Shown here: positions 14,977-20,446 of the stretch, in pieces
Position numbering within the stretch: the stretch's first letter is position 1
How the letters are laid out: each line of letters starts with the position of its first letter
Source of the DNA: Candidatus Saccharimonadales bacterium
Lineage (GTDB): Bacteria; Patescibacteriota; Saccharimonadia; Saccharimonadales; JBDTJP01
Reading direction: 5' to 3'
Assembly (NCBI GenBank): GCA_039935755.1
Contig: JBDTJP010000081.1
Span: 1-28,729 of the forward strand
Length of the DNA stretch: 28,729 nucleotides
Made by a program: the position numbers and the translations under genes
The notes under the pieces: model-generated
Seen by the model: the letters and a program-made list of their open reading frames with translations, nothing else
Databases searched by the model: none
Told to the model about the DNA's origin: nothing

Positions 14977-16758
14977 CTACTCTTCAATGAAACCACCAGA
15001 CTGATGTAACCAAAGTTTGGCGTATAGCCCTTTGTTTTTCAGTAGCTCATTGTGGCTGCCTTGTTCGGAGATATGCCCATTATCAATAACTATAATCCGA
15101 TCCATGTGTCTTAGCGTGGATAGACGATGAGCAATTGCAATGACTGTTTTGTCTTCCCATAGTAGTTCGAGTGCTTCTTGTACTAGGACTTCACTTTCGC
15201 TATCTAGAGCGCTAGTTGCTTCGTCAAGAATTAGTATAGGTTTGTCGTCTAAGAATGCTCGCGCTATAGAAATTCGTTGACGCTGGCCAGCCGACAGTTT
15301 TACTCCACGTTCACCAACCAGAGCATCATAGCCATCAGCTATGTTGACTATAAATTCATCGGCATTAGCTTGGGTGGCTGCATGTACTATGTCACTGTGT
15401 TCAACGTCTCTACTGGTTGCATACGCAATATTCTCCGAAACACTACGGTGAAATAGGCTAGTGTCTTGGGGCACGTATGATACGAGCTGTGATAGCGATT
15501 GTGTATCAATAGTTTGACCATCGAGCTCAATACTTCCGTTAGCAACGGGATAGTATCCGAGCAATAGTTTTGCCAGAGTTGACTTCCCACTACCACTCTT
15601 ACCAACTACCCCAATCTTTTCACCTTTTTGAATAACAATCGAAATATCTTTAAGCACTGTAGTATCTGCTTTGTCTGGATAATTGAATGATAGGTTATTT
15701 AGCGTGAGAGATTGTTCTATGATCGGGCCAGCAACACGCCTAGCGACTTCACTGGAGTGTTTTAACTTAACGGCTCCGAACAAATAGGTGTGGGCTTCTT
15801 CTACCCTAGCTAGTTTAAGGTTGAGTTGAGAAAACTGCCAAATTATATCCCAAATAGTTGACGAGAAAAGTAGTATTGTGGCCAGCAGAGTTGTTAGTTG
15901 TCCGATAGAAATCTGTCCGTTCAGGAACATGTGCACATTGAAAGCAATTGTAATTGGCCATATGAGATGACGGACAAAAAATGACATGCTACCCCAGAAG
16001 AAAATTGACCATGCAAAGGACTGATTCGCTGCCTTTATAGTTTTGGTTTGTTCTAATCTGATCGACTGTAGCTCTTGGAACTCTTTGTGGAATGCTTTTA
16101 CGCTTATGAAGTTTCCAATTATGTCGATGATTTTACCATTCTTAGTCGACACGACATCAGCGGCAATCCTTTCGTATTTGATACTATTACCAATAGTAAA
16201 CTTGCCGGCGATTGCCATTAGTATAATGCCGGATATAAATATGATACTAGTTTGCCAGTTTATGCTGCTTAATATGAAAATGATTGCCAGCAAATTTACG
16301 GCTTGTGAAATATAGTTATAGAAGAATGTCTCGGCCAATCCTCGCATTTCTTGGCTGATTGTACTTACGTAAGAAGCTAATTTGCCCGTAAACTTATCGA
16401 CGAAATATGGGTATGGCTTTGATATAACCTCGCTAAACAATATGTTCTCGTAGCTATATAGCAAAGGGTTAAGCAACTTCATGTATGCAATTTCTGCACT
16501 CCTCCATAAAATGTCATGCCCACTACTACACACTATTAAGGCCCAGACATATATGATAGCATTGCTTGTTTGGGGTGGGGTGGTCGCGAGTGCTCCAACC
16601 AGCTTTCCTATAAAAATGGGTATTATGGCTAGAAAGACGTTGGCTGCAACAAATAATGCTGCAACGATAAACATGCGAAGCTTGTAATTCGACAAATAAC
16701 TAACAAACGAGCGTATCGAGTATCGTGTGTTCTTGGCAGCATATTTTTTACTCTTCAA
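14977..16758 (-). CDS. ABC exporter, fused TMD-NBD (copy 2)
   Basis: Multi-pass TMD, Walker A GKSGSGKS, signature LSAGQ, Walker B LILDE, and AHRL. A TTG start at 16758 (MKSKKYAAKN) overlapping the upstream stop is preferred over 16803; GGTGG lies just upstream. Confidence 0.92.
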   Translation of the reverse strand: MKSKKYAAKNTRYSIRSFVSYLSNYKLRMFIVAALFVAANVFLAIIPIFIGKLVGALATTPPQTSNAIIYVWALIVCSSGHDILWRSAEIAYMKLLNPLLYSYENILFSEVISKPYPYFVDKFTGKLASYVSTISQEMRGLAETFFYNYISQAVNLLAIIFILSSINWQTSIIFISGIILMAIAGKFTIGNSIKYERIAADVVSTKNGKIIDIIGNFISVKAFHKEFQELQSIRLEQTKTIKAANQSFAWSIFFWGSMSFFVRHLIWPITIAFNVHMFLNGQISIGQLTTLLATILLFSSTIWDIIWQFSQLNLKLARVEEAHTYLFGAVKLKHSSEVARRVAGPIIEQSLTLNNLSFNYPDKADTTVLKDISIVIQKGEKIGVVGKSGSGKSTLAKLLLGYYPVANGSIELDGQTIDTQSLSQLVSYVPQDTSLFHRSVSENIAYATSRDVEHSDIVHAATQANADEFIVNIADGYDALVGERGVKLSAGQRQRISIARAFLDDKPILILDEATSALDSESEVLVQEALELLWEDKTVIAIAHRLSTLRHMDRIIVIDNGHISEQGSHNELLKNKGLYAKLWLHQSGGFIEE

Positions 16759-18535
16759 TGAACCCACCAGACTGGCGTGTCCACAGGCTCGCATACATAC
16801 CATTCTTCTGTATGAGCTCTTTGTGATTACCTTCCTCGATTATATTACCGTTGTCCAACACGAATATACGGTCCATTTTCTGTATAGTACTAAGCCTATG
16901 AGCAATAACAATGGCAGTTCGTCCTTCCATCAATTTCCAGAGGGCATCCTGTATTAGATCTTCACTTTCACTGTCTAGTGCACTAGTGGCTTCGTCGAGC
17001 AAGAGAACTCTGGAGTTCTTGAGCATTGCACGGGCGATTGCAACCCGTTGCCTTTGGCCGCCAGACAGCTTAATACCGCGTTCACCTACCAGGGTGTTGT
17101 ATCCCAATGGCAAGTCCTTGATAAACTCGTGGGCGTTAGCAAGTTTAGCTATAGCGATCACTGCTTCCATCGAGGCGTCTAGAGCGCCGTAGCGTATATT
17201 CTCGGCAATACTACGGTGGAACAACATAGGCTCTTGCGCTACGTAGGCAATTTGCTGTCGGAGCTCAATTTGGGTCATTTGGTCTATTGGTAGCCCGTCG
17301 ATGGATATAACACCCGAGTCAATATCCATAAATCTGAGCAGTAATTTCGTAAGCGTAGTCTTACCTCCACCGCTTCTACCGACCAGCCCAATTTTTTCGC
17401 CGGGCTTGATGCGTATATCCAGATTGCTGAAAAGTGTTACTTGTTTCTGTTCCTCTTTATACGCAAACGACACGTCCTTGAATTCAATACTACCCCGGAC
17501 TACCGTAGCGGGGATGGGGCTAGCTACGTCTTTAATGCTTGGTTCAATTTGTAGTATCTCGGTCATCTCGGTTGCATCGCCAAGCGAGCGGTTTATGTTT
17601 CTTACGATTCTACTAAACATCCATAAGCGATTTACGATGCCACCGGTGTAGCTGATTATAAGGTATAAAGTACCGGCATTGGCGTTAAGGTTCGTAATCG
17701 CAAAAAGCCCAAAGAATAGAGCAATAATATGAAATCCATTGGTCTGTATGTGGCTTATAAACTCAGATTTTAGTACTTCGACTGATAGCTTGCGGTAAGC
17801 TTTGTAGGTTGTATCGACTACGCCGCCAAACCTTTCAAGCTCGTGGTCCTCGTGACCAAACGCTCTAATGGTACCTGTGTTCGTAATCGCGTCAGCTAAA
17901 GCTGCAGTTTGGGCACTCTCTGCTTCAGCCTCTACTACGTTGTAGGGCATTTGTTTGCGCATGCGTCTGAACATGATTGCTATATATACTATCGTCACTA
18001 TTAAAAGTACCAGAGCGTACTTGTAGGAGACAGCGAACAGTACTCCAAGCGAGAAGAGCAATGCAGTTACGCCGGATACAATACTCCAGGTGAATTCATC
18101 CATCAAACGTTCGTAGGCGCCCATAAACTTGTTAGTTTGTGATACTAGTGCTCCACTGAACCTGTCTGCATGGAAACGCTGGCTTTGTCGTTGTAGGTGG
18201 TCGTATACCTTGATGGCTATGTCTCGGCGGGCAGATATTTCGTATTGCCAAACGAAGTATGATTGGATTCTCCAAAGGACGACACCAAGTAATAACGCAA
18301 CTGTATATGCCCAAAAATAAGGCATGAATGTTTCTAGATGTAGAGATGCATGAACGGCATAGTCAGACTGTAGCTTGCTAAATAGCCGAGACACTATAAA
18401 TGGGGGTATTATGTCTTGGACAATAACACCAAGAGCTGATCCGGTAGTGCCTATCCAGAAATATCTTTTGTATTGTTTAGTGAAGCCCCAAAAAATACTC
18501 AGGGTTTTCTTAGTTGTAGAATTATTGTTTTTCAT
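16748..18535 (-). CDS. ABC exporter, fused TMD-NBD (copy 1)
   Basis: Multi-pass TMD, Walker A GRSGGGKT, signature LSGGQ, Walker B LLLDE, and AHRL. Confidence 0.95.
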   Translation of the reverse strand: MKNNNSTTKKTLSIFWGFTKQYKRYFWIGTTGSALGVIVQDIIPPFIVSRLFSKLQSDYAVHASLHLETFMPYFWAYTVALLLGVVLWRIQSYFVWQYEISARRDIAIKVYDHLQRQSQRFHADRFSGALVSQTNKFMGAYERLMDEFTWSIVSGVTALLFSLGVLFAVSYKYALVLLIVTIVYIAIMFRRMRKQMPYNVVEAEAESAQTAALADAITNTGTIRAFGHEDHELERFGGVVDTTYKAYRKLSVEVLKSEFISHIQTNGFHIIALFFGLFAITNLNANAGTLYLIISYTGGIVNRLWMFSRIVRNINRSLGDATEMTEILQIEPSIKDVASPIPATVVRGSIEFKDVSFAYKEEQKQVTLFSNLDIRIKPGEKIGLVGRSGGGKTTLTKLLLRFMDIDSGVISIDGLPIDQMTQIELRQQIAYVAQEPMLFHRSIAENIRYGALDASMEAVIAIAKLANAHEFIKDLPLGYNTLVGERGIKLSGGQRQRVAIARAMLKNSRVLLLDEATSALDSESEDLIQDALWKLMEGRTAIVIAHRLSTIQKMDRIFVLDNGNIIEEGNHKELIQKNGMYASLWTRQSGGFIEE

Positions 18536-18612
18536 AACTGCGAGGCTCCGGCTCGCTTATCGTTTATACCTAATAGGTTTATTGTTTAATGAGTAGTTTT
18601 TTGCAAAGGCGG

Positions 18613-18666
18613 CTAACGTGCCATAGGAACGGCAGCAACTTTTGTAAATAAGACTAATTGATACAT
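18613..18666 (-). CDS. Putative leader peptide MYQLVLFTKVAAVPMAR upstream of the ABC exporter pair
   Basis: ATG at 18666, TAG at 18613-18615, preceded by AAGGAAAGGA (18678-18687) and GGTGA. An overlapping alternative uORF, GTG-AAA-AAA-TGT-ATC-AAT-TAG, spans 18654-18674. Confidence 0.45.
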   Translation of the reverse strand: MYQLVLFTKVAAVPMAR

Positions 18667-18692
18667 TTTTTCACCGTTCCTTTCCTTTATAT

Positions 18693-18727
18693 TTGTGACA
18701 ATCGTAGCATTATATCACTTGTGTCAA
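18693..18727 (-). promoter_or_regulatory. Extended -10 (TGATATAAT) for the ABC operon, flanked by two TTGTG(A/T)CAA boxes
   Basis: Minus-strand TATAAT at 18709-18714. Boxes TTGTGACAA (18693-18701) and TTGTGTCAA (18719-18727) read on the plus strand. Confidence 0.55.
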
Positions 18728-18787: not shown

Positions 18788-20446
18788 ATGGAACATTCAC
18801 CCAATTTTGGCCCTGACTATAGCTCACTCGAGGAGAGCCCCCAAGATTCAGATGATGACGTGATAGAGACCAAAACCACTAAAAAGTCCAAAAAGAGTTC
18901 AGGCGGTGAATTATTTGATAAAAAGCCCCCCAAACTCGACACGCCAGAAGCACGGATTGAAAAGTTTGAATCCAAAGCTGAAAAAGAACCACCAATAGAA
19001 GCCTTGGCTGATGATGAAAAGCGACTTGTCGCCCAGGAGTATGTTGATGATCGCGGCAATCAAGTTAAACAAGAGTTAGCAGATCCTAAGCTTGATGACG
19101 CTTCCGAGGCAGCTGCTCTAGCTAACGCAGCTTTCATTGAGAATGTACAAAACCAGCTTGATGAAGGAGGACCAGTCACCCCAGAAGCACTAGACGCGGC
19201 TTTAATCGCTGCTGCCAGTGAGCTTGGAATTGATGAGGACGATCCTGTGGATACTGAGCTTTTGTCTGACGACCCAGAACCAATTGATGATTTGGACGAG
19301 GCCACGCCACTACCTGCTGCTGTCCCCCTTGCTGGTATAGGCGGCGGAATACCAGCCGCACCAGCGCCCCTTAAAGCACCTGCCGCTGTACCACCGGCTG
19401 GGTCGCCGCCTGCACCACCTGCAGGTGGCGGTATCCCTATGCCACCTTTACCTCCCGCACCAATGGGTGGCGCCGCGTTACCGCCAGTTCCACCGATTGG
19501 CGTAGGCGTACCGGCAGCCTTTAATCGCGTACCAAATGTTTTGCAAAACACATCCGAACAACCCCACTCTCACATACAATACGTACTCGCCGGTGGCATA
19601 GTTGGCTACCTGATTGGTCGGCGGCGTGGGCGTATCAAAACAGAGAAGCGTTTATTGCCAGTTCAAGAGAAACTCCAGAAGGAAGTCAGTGAGCTCCAGC
19701 AGGGTATAATTGCGCGTGAACAAAAAATACGTACGTTAGCTAGAGAAAGGGTAATTGCTAACCCAGCATTCAAACAGGAACTTGATAAGAAGTTAGAACT
19801 GCGTCAAGAGGACGAGATTGTAAAACAGGAAACAGTTGCAGAATCGACGAACGAGGTGCTGGATAAGCAGCAAAAACGAGAAAAGCTGGGTGGGCTAGTT
19901 TTACAGTCCGAATTGAGGCCCGATACAGTAAAGTCCAGCCCAGAGCAGACCGTTAAAACAGTCGAATCTATGAATAATCAACAGTTGCTAACAATAGCTG
20001 CCGGTATAGAGATTGCAGGAACTAGCATTAAGCACCTGTTCGAGATGAAGCAGATAAACGAAGTTGGCTTGCGTAAAATTGTTCTGGCTTATGCAAGAGG
20101 TGAACGTTACGAAAGGGTTATTCAGGAAGAATTACGGAGTCCAAATAAGCCTAGTCTAGATAACGAAAAACGCCAAAGCATAGATAAATCAACAGATCAG
20201 GATGTAAGTAAAAATATACGTAATGACATAGTTCTGGAGACTACACCGCAGCCTCTGCCTAGTGCCCAGCAGCGACCCATAAATATGAACGCGTCAACGA
20301 TTAATCAGATTGTAAGTACGGTTAATAGTGACTACTCTAGCGACGGTGCTAGCAATCGTAGCGGCACAAACAAATCATTTCTTACTGCCACGCTCATATT
20401 TGTAGCCTGCGTTATTGCCGCATTAGTATGGGTTATCGCAAGGTAG
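18788..20446 (+). CDS. Acidic, Pro/Gly/Ala-rich membrane protein of unknown function
   Basis: Acidic N-terminal third, low-complexity PPAPPAGGGIPMPPLPPAP tract, Gly-rich hydrophobic helix YVLAGGIVGYLIG followed by RRRGR, a coiled-coil-like segment, and a C-terminal TM helix. Confidence 0.8.
   Translation: MEHSPNFGPDYSSLEESPQDSDDDVIETKTTKKSKKSSGGELFDKKPPKLDTPEARIEKFESKAEKEPPIEALADDEKRLVAQEYVDDRGNQVKQELADPKLDDASEAAALANAAFIENVQNQLDEGGPVTPEALDAALIAAASELGIDEDDPVDTELLSDDPEPIDDLDEATPLPAAVPLAGIGGGIPAAPAPLKAPAAVPPAGSPPAPPAGGGIPMPPLPPAPMGGAALPPVPPIGVGVPAAFNRVPNVLQNTSEQPHSHIQYVLAGGIVGYLIGRRRGRIKTEKRLLPVQEKLQKEVSELQQGIIAREQKIRTLARERVIANPAFKQELDKKLELRQEDEIVKQETVAESTNEVLDKQQKREKLGGLVLQSELRPDTVKSSPEQTVKTVESMNNQQLLTIAAGIEIAGTSIKHLFEMKQINEVGLRKIVLAYARGERYERVIQEELRSPNKPSLDNEKRQSIDKSTDQDVSKNIRNDIVLETTPQPLPSAQQRPINMNASTINQIVSTVNSDYSSDGASNRSGTNKSFLTATLIFVACVIAALVWVIAR

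What the first reader, a model, noticed from the sequence alone, without database searches (positions are those of the whole stretch)
18536..18717. Leader-peptide attenuator-like architecture upstream of the ABC exporter pair
Seen on the minus strand: an extended -10, then a strong purine tract AAGGAAAGGA, then two overlapping uORFs (MKKCIN from GTG, and MYQLVLFTKVAAVPMAR). About 75 nt later a hairpin GCGAG-CCGGAGC-CTCGC (18540-18556) contains the only SD-like GGAG and ends 4 nt before the exporter ATG. The strongest SD in the region serves the uORFs, not the transporter. Known: ribosome stalling on leader peptides induces antibiotic-resistance genes (ermC, cat, msrD). Inference: a translation-sensing switch controlling an efflux operon, which I do not know to be described for this lineage.
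Basis: partly seen in the sequence, partly recalled or inferred. Interest (0 to 1): 0.7.

Follow-up and report, generated by a model that had tools for sequence, protein, structure and literature searches.

The report
Conserved mini-gene leader before exporter
A 17-codon mini-gene and two conserved RNA hairpins sit ahead of a two-gene ABC export pump in most soil and host-associated Saccharibacteria examined, most likely forming an undescribed ribosome-dependent control element that does not work like the textbook attenuators.

Summary
Comparison of 135 orthologous ABC-exporter loci from the order Saccharimonadales shows the layout is conserved: 94-99 loci have a strong SD (GAAAGG), an ATG mini-ORF (mode 17 codons), a G-poor spacer of about 50 nt, and a hairpin holding the exporter's GGAGG.

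The uORF's own SD pairs with uORF codons just before its stop, and this pairing is strongly supported by covariation. The GTG mini-ORF (MKKCIN) is not conserved.

A covariance model finds one copy per genome. In all 38 hits that could be checked it lies upstream of this exporter. It found none elsewhere in Patescibacteria and no Rfam match.

This is not a hairpin-swap or terminator attenuator:
- There is no terminator.
- No upstream segment is complementary to the exporter hairpin.
- Simulated ribosomes on the uORF do not change exporter RBS accessibility.
- Rho and CsrA were not found in 41 genomes.

Peptide sequence evolves neutrally, so translation itself appears to be what matters.

Verdict: a real, undescribed translated leader whose output step and inducing signal are unresolved. 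This scan noted the same family earlier in another genome (e1-1076283).

The parts
18709..18727 (-). Promoter: TTGACA (18727-18722) directly upstream of the extended -10 TGATATAAT (18717-18709). The predicted TSS is near 18702.
   Evidence: sequence. A -10-like hexamer is found in 86/93 leaders, 57 of them with a TG extension, mostly 35-45 nt before the uORF ATG. The TSS is inferred, not mapped.
18696..18702 (-). ATTGTCA box at the predicted transcript start. TGTCA (18700-18696) is the inverted partner of TGACA (18726-18722), so this may be an operator.
   Evidence: A similar box is found downstream of the -10 in 36 leaders. Its function was not tested.
18678..18688 (-). SD1, the purine tract AAAGGAAAGGA that serves the uORF.
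   Evidence: Duplex with the 16S tail is -12.2 kcal/mol. The 16S 3' end reads ...ACCUCCUUU(cu) in two relatives. Median spacing from SD core to ATG is 10 nt across leaders.
18673..18681 (-). P1 5' strand (AGGAACGGU). It overlaps SD1 and its 3' flank.
   Evidence: MFE pairs it with 18633-18625; core helix 92.7% paired, all 7 pairs show compensatory changes, 0/500 shuffles reach this; cognate pairing beats non-cognate, p = 2e-15 and 2e-13.
18613..18666 (-). Leader ORF of 17 codons, MYQLVLFTKVAAVPMAR, plus its TAG stop (followed by C).
   Evidence: In 99 leaders the start is ATG in 96 and the length mode is 17 codons. The base after the stop is C in 53% against 25% genome-wide, and the penultimate residue is Ala in 43%.
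18654..18674 (-). GTG mini-ORF MKKCIN. It overlaps the uORF start and is probably not functional.
   Evidence: Present. It has no counterpart in the orthologous leaders. Its GTG lies only 4 nt after the GAAAGG core.
18625..18633 (-). P1 3' strand (GCCGUUCCU, codons Ala-Val-Pro). It pairs with SD1 and its flank.
   Evidence: It ends a median 7 nt before the stop across leaders, so it lies inside a ribosome that is at the last codons.
18611..18622 (-). P2, a small hairpin GGC-ACGUUA-GCC that encloses the stop codon.
   Evidence: 3 pairs, 82% of cells paired, compensatory changes present. It is weak and not universal: the register is present in 24/93 by a strict test.
18557..18612 (-). G-poor, A/C-rich unstructured spacer. 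The window copy has 5 G and 12 C in 56 nt.
   Evidence: counted from sequence. Family-wide G is 6.6%, C 23% and A 42%, with C>G in 93/99. NTG start codons number 34 against 55 expected. CAAAAC is enriched 10-15 nt after the stop.
18540..18556 (-). P3, the hairpin GCGAG-CCGGAGC-CUCGC with the exporter SD (GGAG, 18549-18546) in its loop. It ends 4 nt before the ATG.
   Evidence: SD2 is enclosed in a hairpin in at least 74/89 leaders. On a sequence-only alignment, 60.7% of cells pair against 44.9% in shuffles, 0/500. Opening cost is 7.4 kcal/mol here and 10.3 on average.
16748..18535 (-). ABC exporter subunit 1 (595 aa; ABC_membrane plus ABC_tran).
   Evidence: Pfam; closest solved relatives are ABCB-type exporters and TM287/288-like half-transporters; start codon.
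14977..16803 (-). ABC exporter subunit 2 (608 aa as listed; the true start may lie further downstream).

Best explanation
The region is the 5' leader of the exporter mRNA and belongs to an undescribed family of translated leaders specific to Saccharimonadales.

Shown:
- A promoter lies at a conserved distance upstream.
- A very strong SD (GAAAGG, complementary to the 16S 3' tail) drives a roughly 17-codon ORF. Its start, length and stop position are conserved but its peptide sequence is not.
- That SD plus its variable 3' flank base-pairs with uORF codons about 3-6 from the stop (helix P1). The uORF's ribosome-binding site is therefore self-sequestered. It is free only before P1's 3' strand is transcribed, or while a ribosome covers that strand at the last codons.
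- A spacer of about 50 nt follows that is nearly free of G, so it is unstructured and poor in start codons and SD-like sequences.
- The exporter's GGAGG sits in the loop of an autonomous hairpin (P3) that costs about 7-10 kcal/mol to open.

Inferred:
- Exporter synthesis is gated by ribosome traffic on the uORF.
- The most likely route is long-range translational coupling. Ribosomes or 30S subunits released at the uORF stop stay on the G-free track as a standby or sliding pool and capture the hairpin-locked RBS.
- Ribosome occupancy near the 5' end may also protect the mRNA from RNase J.
- A ribosome slowed at the end of the uORF keeps P1 open and lets further ribosomes load, so flux through the leader would report translation status.

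The direction of the response and the inducing signal (ribosome-targeting antibiotics are the obvious candidate) are not established.
For: - Conservation: 99/135 orthologous loci carry the layout, or 94/135 when the uORF is chosen without using P1.
- uORF features: ATG in 96/99 and lengths clustered at 16-19 codons. SD-to-ATG spacing has a median of 10 nt. The 16S tail reads ACCUCCUUU.
- P1: cognate duplex -15.9 kcal/mol against -12.6 non-cognate, p = 2e-15. The unbiased set gives -17.0 against -13.4, p = 2e-13. In the CM alignment 92.7% of cells pair, all 7 core pairs show double changes, 0/500 shuffles reach this, and slide controls give at most 53%.
- Peptide: close pairs differ by 10 synonymous and 40 non-synonymous codon changes with no third-position excess.
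- Spacer: G 6.6%, with C>G in 93/99. Start codons are depleted beyond what composition explains.
- P3: present in at least 74/89 leaders and shows covariation on an alignment not fitted to the structure. Its opening cost is high.
- Specificity: one CM hit per genome in 50/151 order genomes. All 38 hits whose exporter coordinates were listed lie 45-165 nt upstream of the exporter on the same strand (searches compared).
- RNase J is present in 41/41 genomes.
Against: - There is no transcript, ribosome-profiling or reporter data. No RNA run was listed, so the TSS and translation are both inferred.
- The coupling step has no direct sequence signature. A 77-nt gap is long for bacterial reinitiation.
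- No conserved read-through or frameshift frame reaches P3.
- Thermodynamic modelling shows no communication between the uORF and P3. P3 could therefore be regulated independently.
- About a quarter of orthologous loci lack the uORF but keep an SD-like box, the spacer and P3 (types B and C). The uORF is thus dispensable in some lineages.
- The window's own P3 is among the weaker ones (-6.8 kcal/mol).
Confidence: 0.62

Rival explanations
1. Classic hairpin-swap attenuator, as the first reader proposed (ermC/cat-type translational attenuation or bmrB-type transcriptional attenuation). A ribosome stalled on the leader peptide would break one pairing and free an alternative one that exposes the exporter SD or removes a terminator.
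For: A leader ORF is present and the exporter SD sits in a hairpin. The functional analogy to bmrB-bmrCD holds (PMC4191407). The uORF tail is rich in Ala/Ser/Thr, with Ala penultimate in 43%. This fits the context rule for PTC-targeting drugs (10.1101/2021.08.10.455846).
Against: There is no intrinsic terminator on the minus strand, and P3 is followed directly by the ATG. Cognate versus non-cognate tests find no specific complementarity between P3 and the uORF tail, the post-stop region, the SD1 region or the spacer. Masking four ribosome positions changes the RBS opening cost by 0.1 kcal/mol or less on average. The uORF stop lies 77 nt from the exporter start.
Confidence: 0.07
2. RNA-level element in which translation of the ORF is incidental. 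One version is a 5' stabiliser of the STAB-SD kind, where a strong SD near the 5' end binds 30S and, together with the P1 hairpin, blocks 5'-to-3' decay. Another is a binding site for an unknown protein.
For: SD1 lies about 15 nt from the predicted 5' end. RNase J is present in 41/41 genomes. Type C relatives keep GAGGCGGC plus an A-run but have no ATG or uORF. Peptide sequence is unconstrained.
Against: ATG is kept in 96/99 leaders at proper SD spacing. ORF length is tightly clustered and the stop sits at a fixed place relative to P1. The weak stop context (C after the stop) is enriched. CsrA, the known reader of GGA-in-loop sites, was not found in 0/41 genomes.
Confidence: 0.15
3. The mini-ORF encodes a functional small peptide, either a substrate such as a pheromone or bacteriocin, or a partner of the adjacent exporter. 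On this reading it is not a regulatory leader.
For: It is always adjacent to an ABC exporter. Cys is enriched 4.6-fold and the tail is Ala-rich, often ending in Cys.
Against: There is no purifying selection on the peptide: 10 synonymous against 40 non-synonymous changes and no third-position excess. At 13-21 residues it has no leader or cleavage motif and is too short and too weakly hydrophobic to span a membrane. The tail residues are explained by the P1 and P2 nucleotide pairings. The RBS is self-sequestered, which is unusual for a product gene.
Confidence: 0.08
4. tnaC-like Rho-dependent attenuation. The G-poor, C-rich spacer next to the uORF stop would be a rut site that a ribosome paused at the stop codon masks.
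For: Spacer composition is C 23% against G 6.6%, starting right after the stop. The weak stop context is enriched.
Against: The Rho RNA-binding domain PF07497 was not found in any of 41 Saccharimonadales genomes, 35 of them at least 90% complete. The same search rang in 9 control genomes.
Confidence: 0.02

Closest known systems
bmrB leader of bmrCD, Bacillus subtilis (PMC4191407)
   Same: A short translated ORF immediately upstream of a heterodimeric ABC exporter pair. Its translation, rather than its product, controls exporter expression. It is co-transcribed from one promoter.
   Different: bmrB contains an intrinsic terminator and three alternative stem-loops, and it acts on transcription. 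Here there is no terminator and no alternative pairing. The uORF's own SD is sequestered by the uORF, and a 77-nt G-poor spacer separates the uORF from an autonomous SD hairpin. The exporters are generic ABCB-type relatives and were not shown to be BmrCD orthologues.
ermC / cat / cmlA translational attenuation leaders (from general knowledge)
   Same: A leader peptide is present and the downstream gene's SD is held in a hairpin. The Ala/Ser/Thr-rich peptide tail resembles stall contexts of PTC inhibitors (10.1101/2021.08.10.455846, PMC9303264).
   Different: In those systems the stalled ribosome physically melts a strand that otherwise locks SD2. Here the hairpin is about 50 nt away and is insensitive to ribosome position in modelling.
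tetA(L) leader of B. subtilis (regulation by translational reinitiation) and ribosome standby sites such as tisB (from memory, not checked in a paper here)
   Same: An efflux gene with a structured RBS whose translation depends on ribosomes that first engage upstream, either on a leader ORF or on a single-stranded standby region.
   Different: The distance is much longer and the track is G-free. The self-sequestered uORF RBS (P1) has no counterpart in those systems. None of this is tested.
tnaC-tnaA leader of E. coli (from general knowledge)
   Same: A uORF whose stop codon is followed at once by a C-rich, G-poor tract.
   Different: tnaC requires Rho, which was not found in this order.
STAB-SD 5' mRNA stabiliser of cryIIIA (GAAAGGAGG; from memory)
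   Same: A near-identical polypurine SD close to the 5' end in a lineage with RNase J. Type C relatives have the SD without an ORF.
   Different: Here the SD is followed by a conserved ATG ORF and is itself base-paired.

Membership tests
Ribosome-mediated transcription attenuator (bmrB / trp type) | Translated leader ORF upstream of the regulated genes | tested here: met
   A conserved SD plus ATG plus roughly 17-codon ORF is found in 94-99 of 135 loci. Translation is inferred from sequence only.
Ribosome-mediated transcription attenuator (bmrB / trp type) | Intrinsic terminator (GC hairpin plus U-run) between the leader ORF and the structural gene | tested here: not met
   One search finds no terminator-like site on the minus strand. 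P3 is followed by AGUUAUG. The only hit is the P3 palindrome read on the plus strand.
Ribosome-mediated transcription attenuator (bmrB / trp type) | Mutually exclusive antiterminator and terminator pairings overlapping the leader ORF | tested here: not met
   No cognate complementarity to P3 exists anywhere upstream. Ribosome masking has no effect.
Translational attenuation (ermC / cat / cmlA type) | SD and start of the regulated gene sequestered in a hairpin | tested here: met
   P3 is present in at least 74/89 leaders, shows covariation, and costs 7-10 kcal/mol to open.
Translational attenuation (ermC / cat / cmlA type) | A ribosome stalled in the leader frees that SD by displacing its pairing partner | tested here: not met
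   The mean change in opening cost is 0.1 kcal/mol or less for four simulated ribosome positions. The stop is 77 nt from the exporter start. The modelling excludes pseudoknots.
Translational attenuation (ermC / cat / cmlA type) | Drug-dependent stalling at a defined peptide motif | not testable with these tools
   Only a lead is available: Ala is penultimate in 43% of leaders, the peptide is rich in A/S/T, and Gly is depleted. Nucleotide constraints of P1 and P2 can explain this.
Rho-dependent leader-peptide attenuation (tnaC type) | C-rich, G-poor rut tract adjacent to the uORF stop | tested here: met
   C is 23% and G 6.6%, with C>G in 93/99 leaders.
Rho-dependent leader-peptide attenuation (tnaC type) | Rho factor encoded by the organism | tested here: not met
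   PF07497 gave 0/41 genomes, 35 of them at least 90% complete. Controls were positive.
Any curated RNA family (Rfam 15) | Match to a covariance model | tested here: not met
   No relevant hit at E up to 10 in the window leader. None at E up to 0.1 in 20 orthologous leaders.
CsrA-controlled leader (GGA in hairpin loop over the SD) | CsrA encoded by the organism | tested here: not met
   PF02599 gave 0/41 genomes. Controls were positive.

The most novel reading that the evidence does not exclude
This would be a terminator-, Rho- and hairpin-swap-independent kind of leader control.

- The uORF's ribosome-binding site is locked by the uORF's own 3' codons.
- It can therefore be loaded only co-transcriptionally, or while a preceding ribosome lingers at the last codons. 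That makes it a self-latching 'pioneer-round' gate.
- Ribosomes released at the uORF stop are handed along a G-free, start-codon-free track to a hairpin-locked exporter RBS about 50 nt away.

Exporter synthesis would then read out ribosome availability or speed through long-range translational coupling, a mechanism not described for bacteria at this distance.
Probability: 0.22. Interest if true: 0.8.

Novelty: new variant of a known kind. Interest (0 to 1): 0.6.

Why it matters
Candidate Phyla Radiation bacteria have tiny genomes and few recognisable regulators, and almost nothing is known about how they control genes. This is a cis-acting, ribosome-dependent leader conserved across an order, attached to its main multidrug-type exporter. 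These organisms live on antibiotic-producing Actinobacteria.

The architecture combines a self-sequestered uORF RBS, a G-free track and an autonomous SD hairpin, with no Rho and no terminator. It does not fit any textbook attenuator, so working it out could reveal a further way in which translation of a mini-ORF is coupled to a distant gene.

It also provides a ready covariance model for annotating these leaders and their unannotated mini-ORFs in Saccharibacteria genomes.

Tried and rejected
- RNAalifold on MAFFT alignments predicted no pairs, because helix registers differ between sequences. This was replaced by cognate versus non-cognate duplex tests, a hand-seeded CM, and explicit pair counting.
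- The search for related loci on genome contigs returned only four true orthologues. It did name the lineage as Candidatus Saccharimonadales / Saccharibacteria.
- Rho-dependent model: rejected, no Rho found.
- CsrA model: rejected, no CsrA found.
- Hairpin-swap relay: rejected.
- Stop-codon read-through or frameshift carrying ribosomes into P3: not supported. Only about 27% of leaders per frame stay open that far.
- Post-stop anti-SD pairing with SD1 or SD2: the pyrimidine motif is present in only about 30% of leaders, and there is no cognate signal.
- Three CM hits outside the order were ordinary gene starts or coding sequence, so they are false positives.
- RNA-seq: no RNA run was listed for this DNA. 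Only soil DNA metagenomes hold it.
- The genome-wide comparison of start-site structure is noisy, because gene starts were called crudely.
- Literature searches found no paper linking Saccharibacteria with a uORF, leader peptide or attenuator. The Weinberg 2017 motif list has only lysM-TM7 for this phylum.

Full report
**What is in the window**

All features were read on the minus strand.
- TTGACA lies at 18727-18722, directly followed by an extended -10, TGATATAAT, at 18717-18709.
- An ATTGTCA box lies at 18702-18696.
- The purine tract AAAGGAAAGGA lies at 18688-18678.
- A GTG mini-ORF (MKKCIN) spans 18674-18654.
- The ATG uORF MYQLVLFTKVAAVPMAR starts at 18666-18664 and stops at TAG 18615-18613.
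- A 56-nt tract at 18612-18557 contains only 5 G.
- The hairpin GCGAG-CCGGAGC-CUCGC at 18556-18540 has GGAG in its loop.
- The exporter ATG is at 18535, four bases after the hairpin.

The downstream genes are two ABC_membrane plus ABC_tran half-transporters. Their closest solved relatives are ABCB-type exporters and TM287/288-like proteins. Upstream, on the other strand, is a 552-aa ORF with no Pfam domain, so the 252-nt gap is a divergent intergenic region.

Taken alone, the leader does not fold better than shuffles (z = -0.8), and Rfam has nothing there.

**Lineage**

The genome is a 0.63-Mb, 68%-complete assembly. Its best named relatives are Candidatus Saccharimonadales / Saccharibacteria MAGs. 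The DNA is held by soil metagenomes.

**Conservation**

I collected the gene orthologous to exporter subunit 1 from the order. It was found in 297 of 401 genomes at E <= 1e-100. That tally includes four unpublished genomes, G262, G340, G342 and G352. No sequence from them was fetched or used in any leader analysis.

I read the upstream DNA of 135 loci. Ninety-nine carry the same layout:
- a strong SD;
- an ATG (96) or GTG (3) uORF of 13-29 codons, with mode 17 and 82 of 99 between 15 and 20;
- a TAA or TAG stop (one TGA);
- a median of 70 nt from the stop to the exporter ATG.

When the uORF is chosen from SD plus ATG alone, 94 of 135 qualify. The 16S 3' tail of two relatives reads ...ACCUCCUUU(cu). 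GAAAGG is therefore a genuine SD, and its median spacing of 10 nt to the ATG is appropriate for pairing with the distal tail. A -10-like hexamer lies mostly 35-45 nt before the uORF ATG; in the window the distance is 42 nt. This places the uORF inside the transcript. The GTG mini-ORF has no counterpart elsewhere.

In nearly every leader, the SD and the 4-7 variable bases after it are complementary to uORF codons shortly before the stop. In the window this is AGGAACGGU (18681-18673) pairing with GCCGUUCCU (18633-18625), at -15.8 kcal/mol.
- Cognate strands pair better than strands taken from other loci: -15.9 against -12.6 kcal/mol, p = 2e-15.
- In a set chosen without reference to P1 the values are -17.0 against -13.4, with cognate better in 77 of 88, p = 2e-13.
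- A covariance model was seeded from five gapless leaders and realigned on 67 leaders. In it, 92.7% of cells in the 7-pair core are paired, every pair shows compensatory double changes, none of 500 shuffles reaches this, and sliding the partner drops pairing to 53% or less. That alignment is fitted to the structure, so the duplex tests are the independent support.

The uORF's ribosome-binding site is thus self-sequestered. The loop is about 36 nt and holds the ATG. The 3' strand ends a median 7 nt before the stop, inside the footprint of a ribosome decoding the last codons.

A small hairpin around the stop (P2) has weaker support.

**Translation, not peptide**

Among seven disjoint pairs of closely related leaders, codon differences are 10 synonymous and 40 non-synonymous. 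There is no third-position excess in the N-terminal part. The peptide sequence is therefore unconstrained, while start, length and stop are kept.

The tail is Ala-rich: Ala is penultimate in 43% of leaders, and in 29% even where P2 is not formed. The base after the stop is C in 53% of leaders against 25% genome-wide, and TGA stops are almost absent. These features could reflect slow termination, or the Ala(-1) context rule of PTC inhibitors (10.1101/2021.08.10.455846; PMC9303264). They are also largely explained by the nucleotides of P1 and P2, so I treat them as leads only.

**Spacer and exporter hairpin (P3)**

The spacer is 42% A, 28% T, 23% C and 6.6% G, with C>G in 93 of 99 leaders. The promoter region of the same loci has G roughly equal to C at about 16%. 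NTG start codons are rarer than composition predicts, 34 against 55. A CAAAAC motif is enriched 10-15 nt after the stop.

The exporter SD is enclosed in a short hairpin in at least 74 of 89 leaders. On a sequence-only MAFFT alignment, the eight proposed pairs are 60.7% paired against 44.9% in shuffles, with 155 double-change cells against 82 (0/500). Opening the RBS costs 10.3 kcal/mol on average and 7.4 in the window.

**How it does not work**

- There is no terminator on the coding strand.
- No upstream segment shows cognate-specific complementarity to P3. The SD1 region, distal uORF, stop region and spacer were all tested.
- Forcing the uORF single-stranded at four ribosome positions changes the RBS opening cost by 0.1 kcal/mol or less on average.
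- Read-through or frameshift frames reach P3 in only about 27% of leaders.
- The spacer looks like a rut site, but the Rho RNA-binding domain was not found in 41 genomes of the order while positive controls rang.
- CsrA, which reads GGA in hairpin loops, was likewise not found.
- RNase J is present in all 41 genomes.

**Specificity**

The second covariance model hits the window's genome once, at 18604-18692 on the minus strand. It hits 50 of 151 genomes of the order at E <= 0.01 under strict filters, never twice in one genome. For 38 of these hits the exporter coordinates were listed. All 38 lie 45-165 nt upstream of the exporter on the same strand. Among about 143 other Patescibacteria genomes, the three weak hits are ordinary gene starts or coding sequence. 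Twenty orthologous leaders have no Rfam match.

**Most likely mechanism**

Shown: the anatomy described above.

Inferred: ribosome traffic on the uORF gates exporter synthesis. P1 lets ribosomes load only before its 3' strand is made, or while a ribosome sits on that strand. A slow or paused ribosome at the uORF end therefore promotes further loading. The G-free tract offers an unstructured track, poor in start codons and SD-like sequences, between the uORF stop and the locked RBS. That fits standby or sliding delivery of post-termination ribosomes. Protection of the 5' end from RNase J may also contribute.

I put 0.62 on 'translated cis-regulatory leader of the exporter'. I put about 0.2-0.3 on the specific coupling route. 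The sign of the response and the signal remain open.

**Rivals**

- An RNA-only stabiliser or protein site (0.15). Type C relatives that keep GAGGCGGC plus an A-run without an ATG support this reading.
- A functional exported peptide (0.08).
- The classic hairpin-swap attenuator (0.07).
- Rho-dependent control (0.02).

**Comparison with what is known**

Functionally the nearest case is bmrB-bmrCD (PMC4191407): a leader peptide controlling a heterodimeric ABC exporter. The defining terminator and alternative stem-loops of that system are absent here. ermC/cat-type attenuation shares the SD hairpin but not the relay. tnaC shares the composition after the stop but needs Rho. I found no paper linking Saccharibacteria to such a leader.

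This scan had already noted the same layout in another Saccharibacteria genome and reached a similar verdict (e1-1076283). My analysis was done before I saw that note and agrees with it. It adds P1, P3 covariation, the G-free spacer, and the Rho, CsrA and RNase J checks.

**Limits**

- All genomes are MAGs or unnamed representatives.
- Relatives are not independent, so p-values overstate the evidence.
- Thresholds for 'type A' are mine.
- Folding models ignore pseudoknots and kinetics.
- No expression data exist for this organism.

Noticed in passing
window 18709-18727 (-); genome contigs C36:3302-3320 (+), and motif offsets 6172 and 3379 on the reverse-complemented strands of C37 and C43: The 19-nt motif TTGACAnnnGTGnTATAAT occurs four times without mismatch in this 0.63-Mb partial genome, and the same box precedes many orthologous leaders. 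TTGACA sits only 7 nt before the -10, so it is not a normal -35. Two of the other copies have an ATG 7-9 nt after the -10, which suggests leaderless mRNAs. All three other copies precede ORFs that were not characterised here.
   Followed up: partly
window 18696-18726 (-): An inverted repeat TGACA-N21-TGTCA brackets the -10 box. Perfect TTGACAA / TTGTCAA versions occur in L099 and L110, and an ATTGTCA-like box follows the -10 in 36 leaders. This may be an operator for an unidentified repressor acting on top of the leader.
   Followed up: partly
L003, L088, L132, L142, L150, L169, L170 (upstream of the exporter): Type C leaders keep GAGGCGGC plus an A-run, a G-poor tract (often AAAAACCTTAAAAC) and the SD hairpin. 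They have no ATG and no P1 3' strand, so the uORF has been lost in some families.
   Followed up: no
L004/L031, L089, L100, L133, L135, L144, L161, L186 (upstream of the exporter): Type B leaders replace the uORF/P1 module with a short conserved hairpin, (G)ATCGG-ACGNG-CCGAT(C), followed by CTATAG or CAATAG. This may be a collapsed P1 and is of unknown meaning.
   Followed up: no
41 Saccharimonadales genomes (G000-G040): The Rho RNA-binding domain and CsrA were not found in any of them, while positive controls rang. RNase J was found in all 41. This is useful background for any RNA-regulation model in this order.
   Followed up: yes
window 18788-20446 (+): The divergently transcribed 552-aa ORF has no Pfam match. 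In other families the gene divergent from the exporter leader is a different one.
   Followed up: no
window 16748-16803 (-): As listed, the ORF of exporter subunit 2 overlaps the end of subunit 1 by 56 nt. Its true start is probably further downstream.
   Followed up: no
window 18540-18556 (+): The only terminator-like site reported by the scan is the P3 palindrome read on the plus strand and followed by a T-rich run. It would face antisense to the exporter and is probably meaningless.
   Followed up: no
window 18596-18612 (-) and orthologous leaders: Just after the uORF stop there is a pyrimidine-rich stretch (CCGCCUUUG in the window). An anti-SD-like core is present in about 30% of leaders. 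It is followed by an enriched CAAAAC motif at +10 to +15. The role is unknown.
   Followed up: partly
G027:C5:79868-88855, G032:C2:73073-78387 and others: Several relatives carry three to five tandem ABC exporter genes downstream of a single leader.
   Followed up: no
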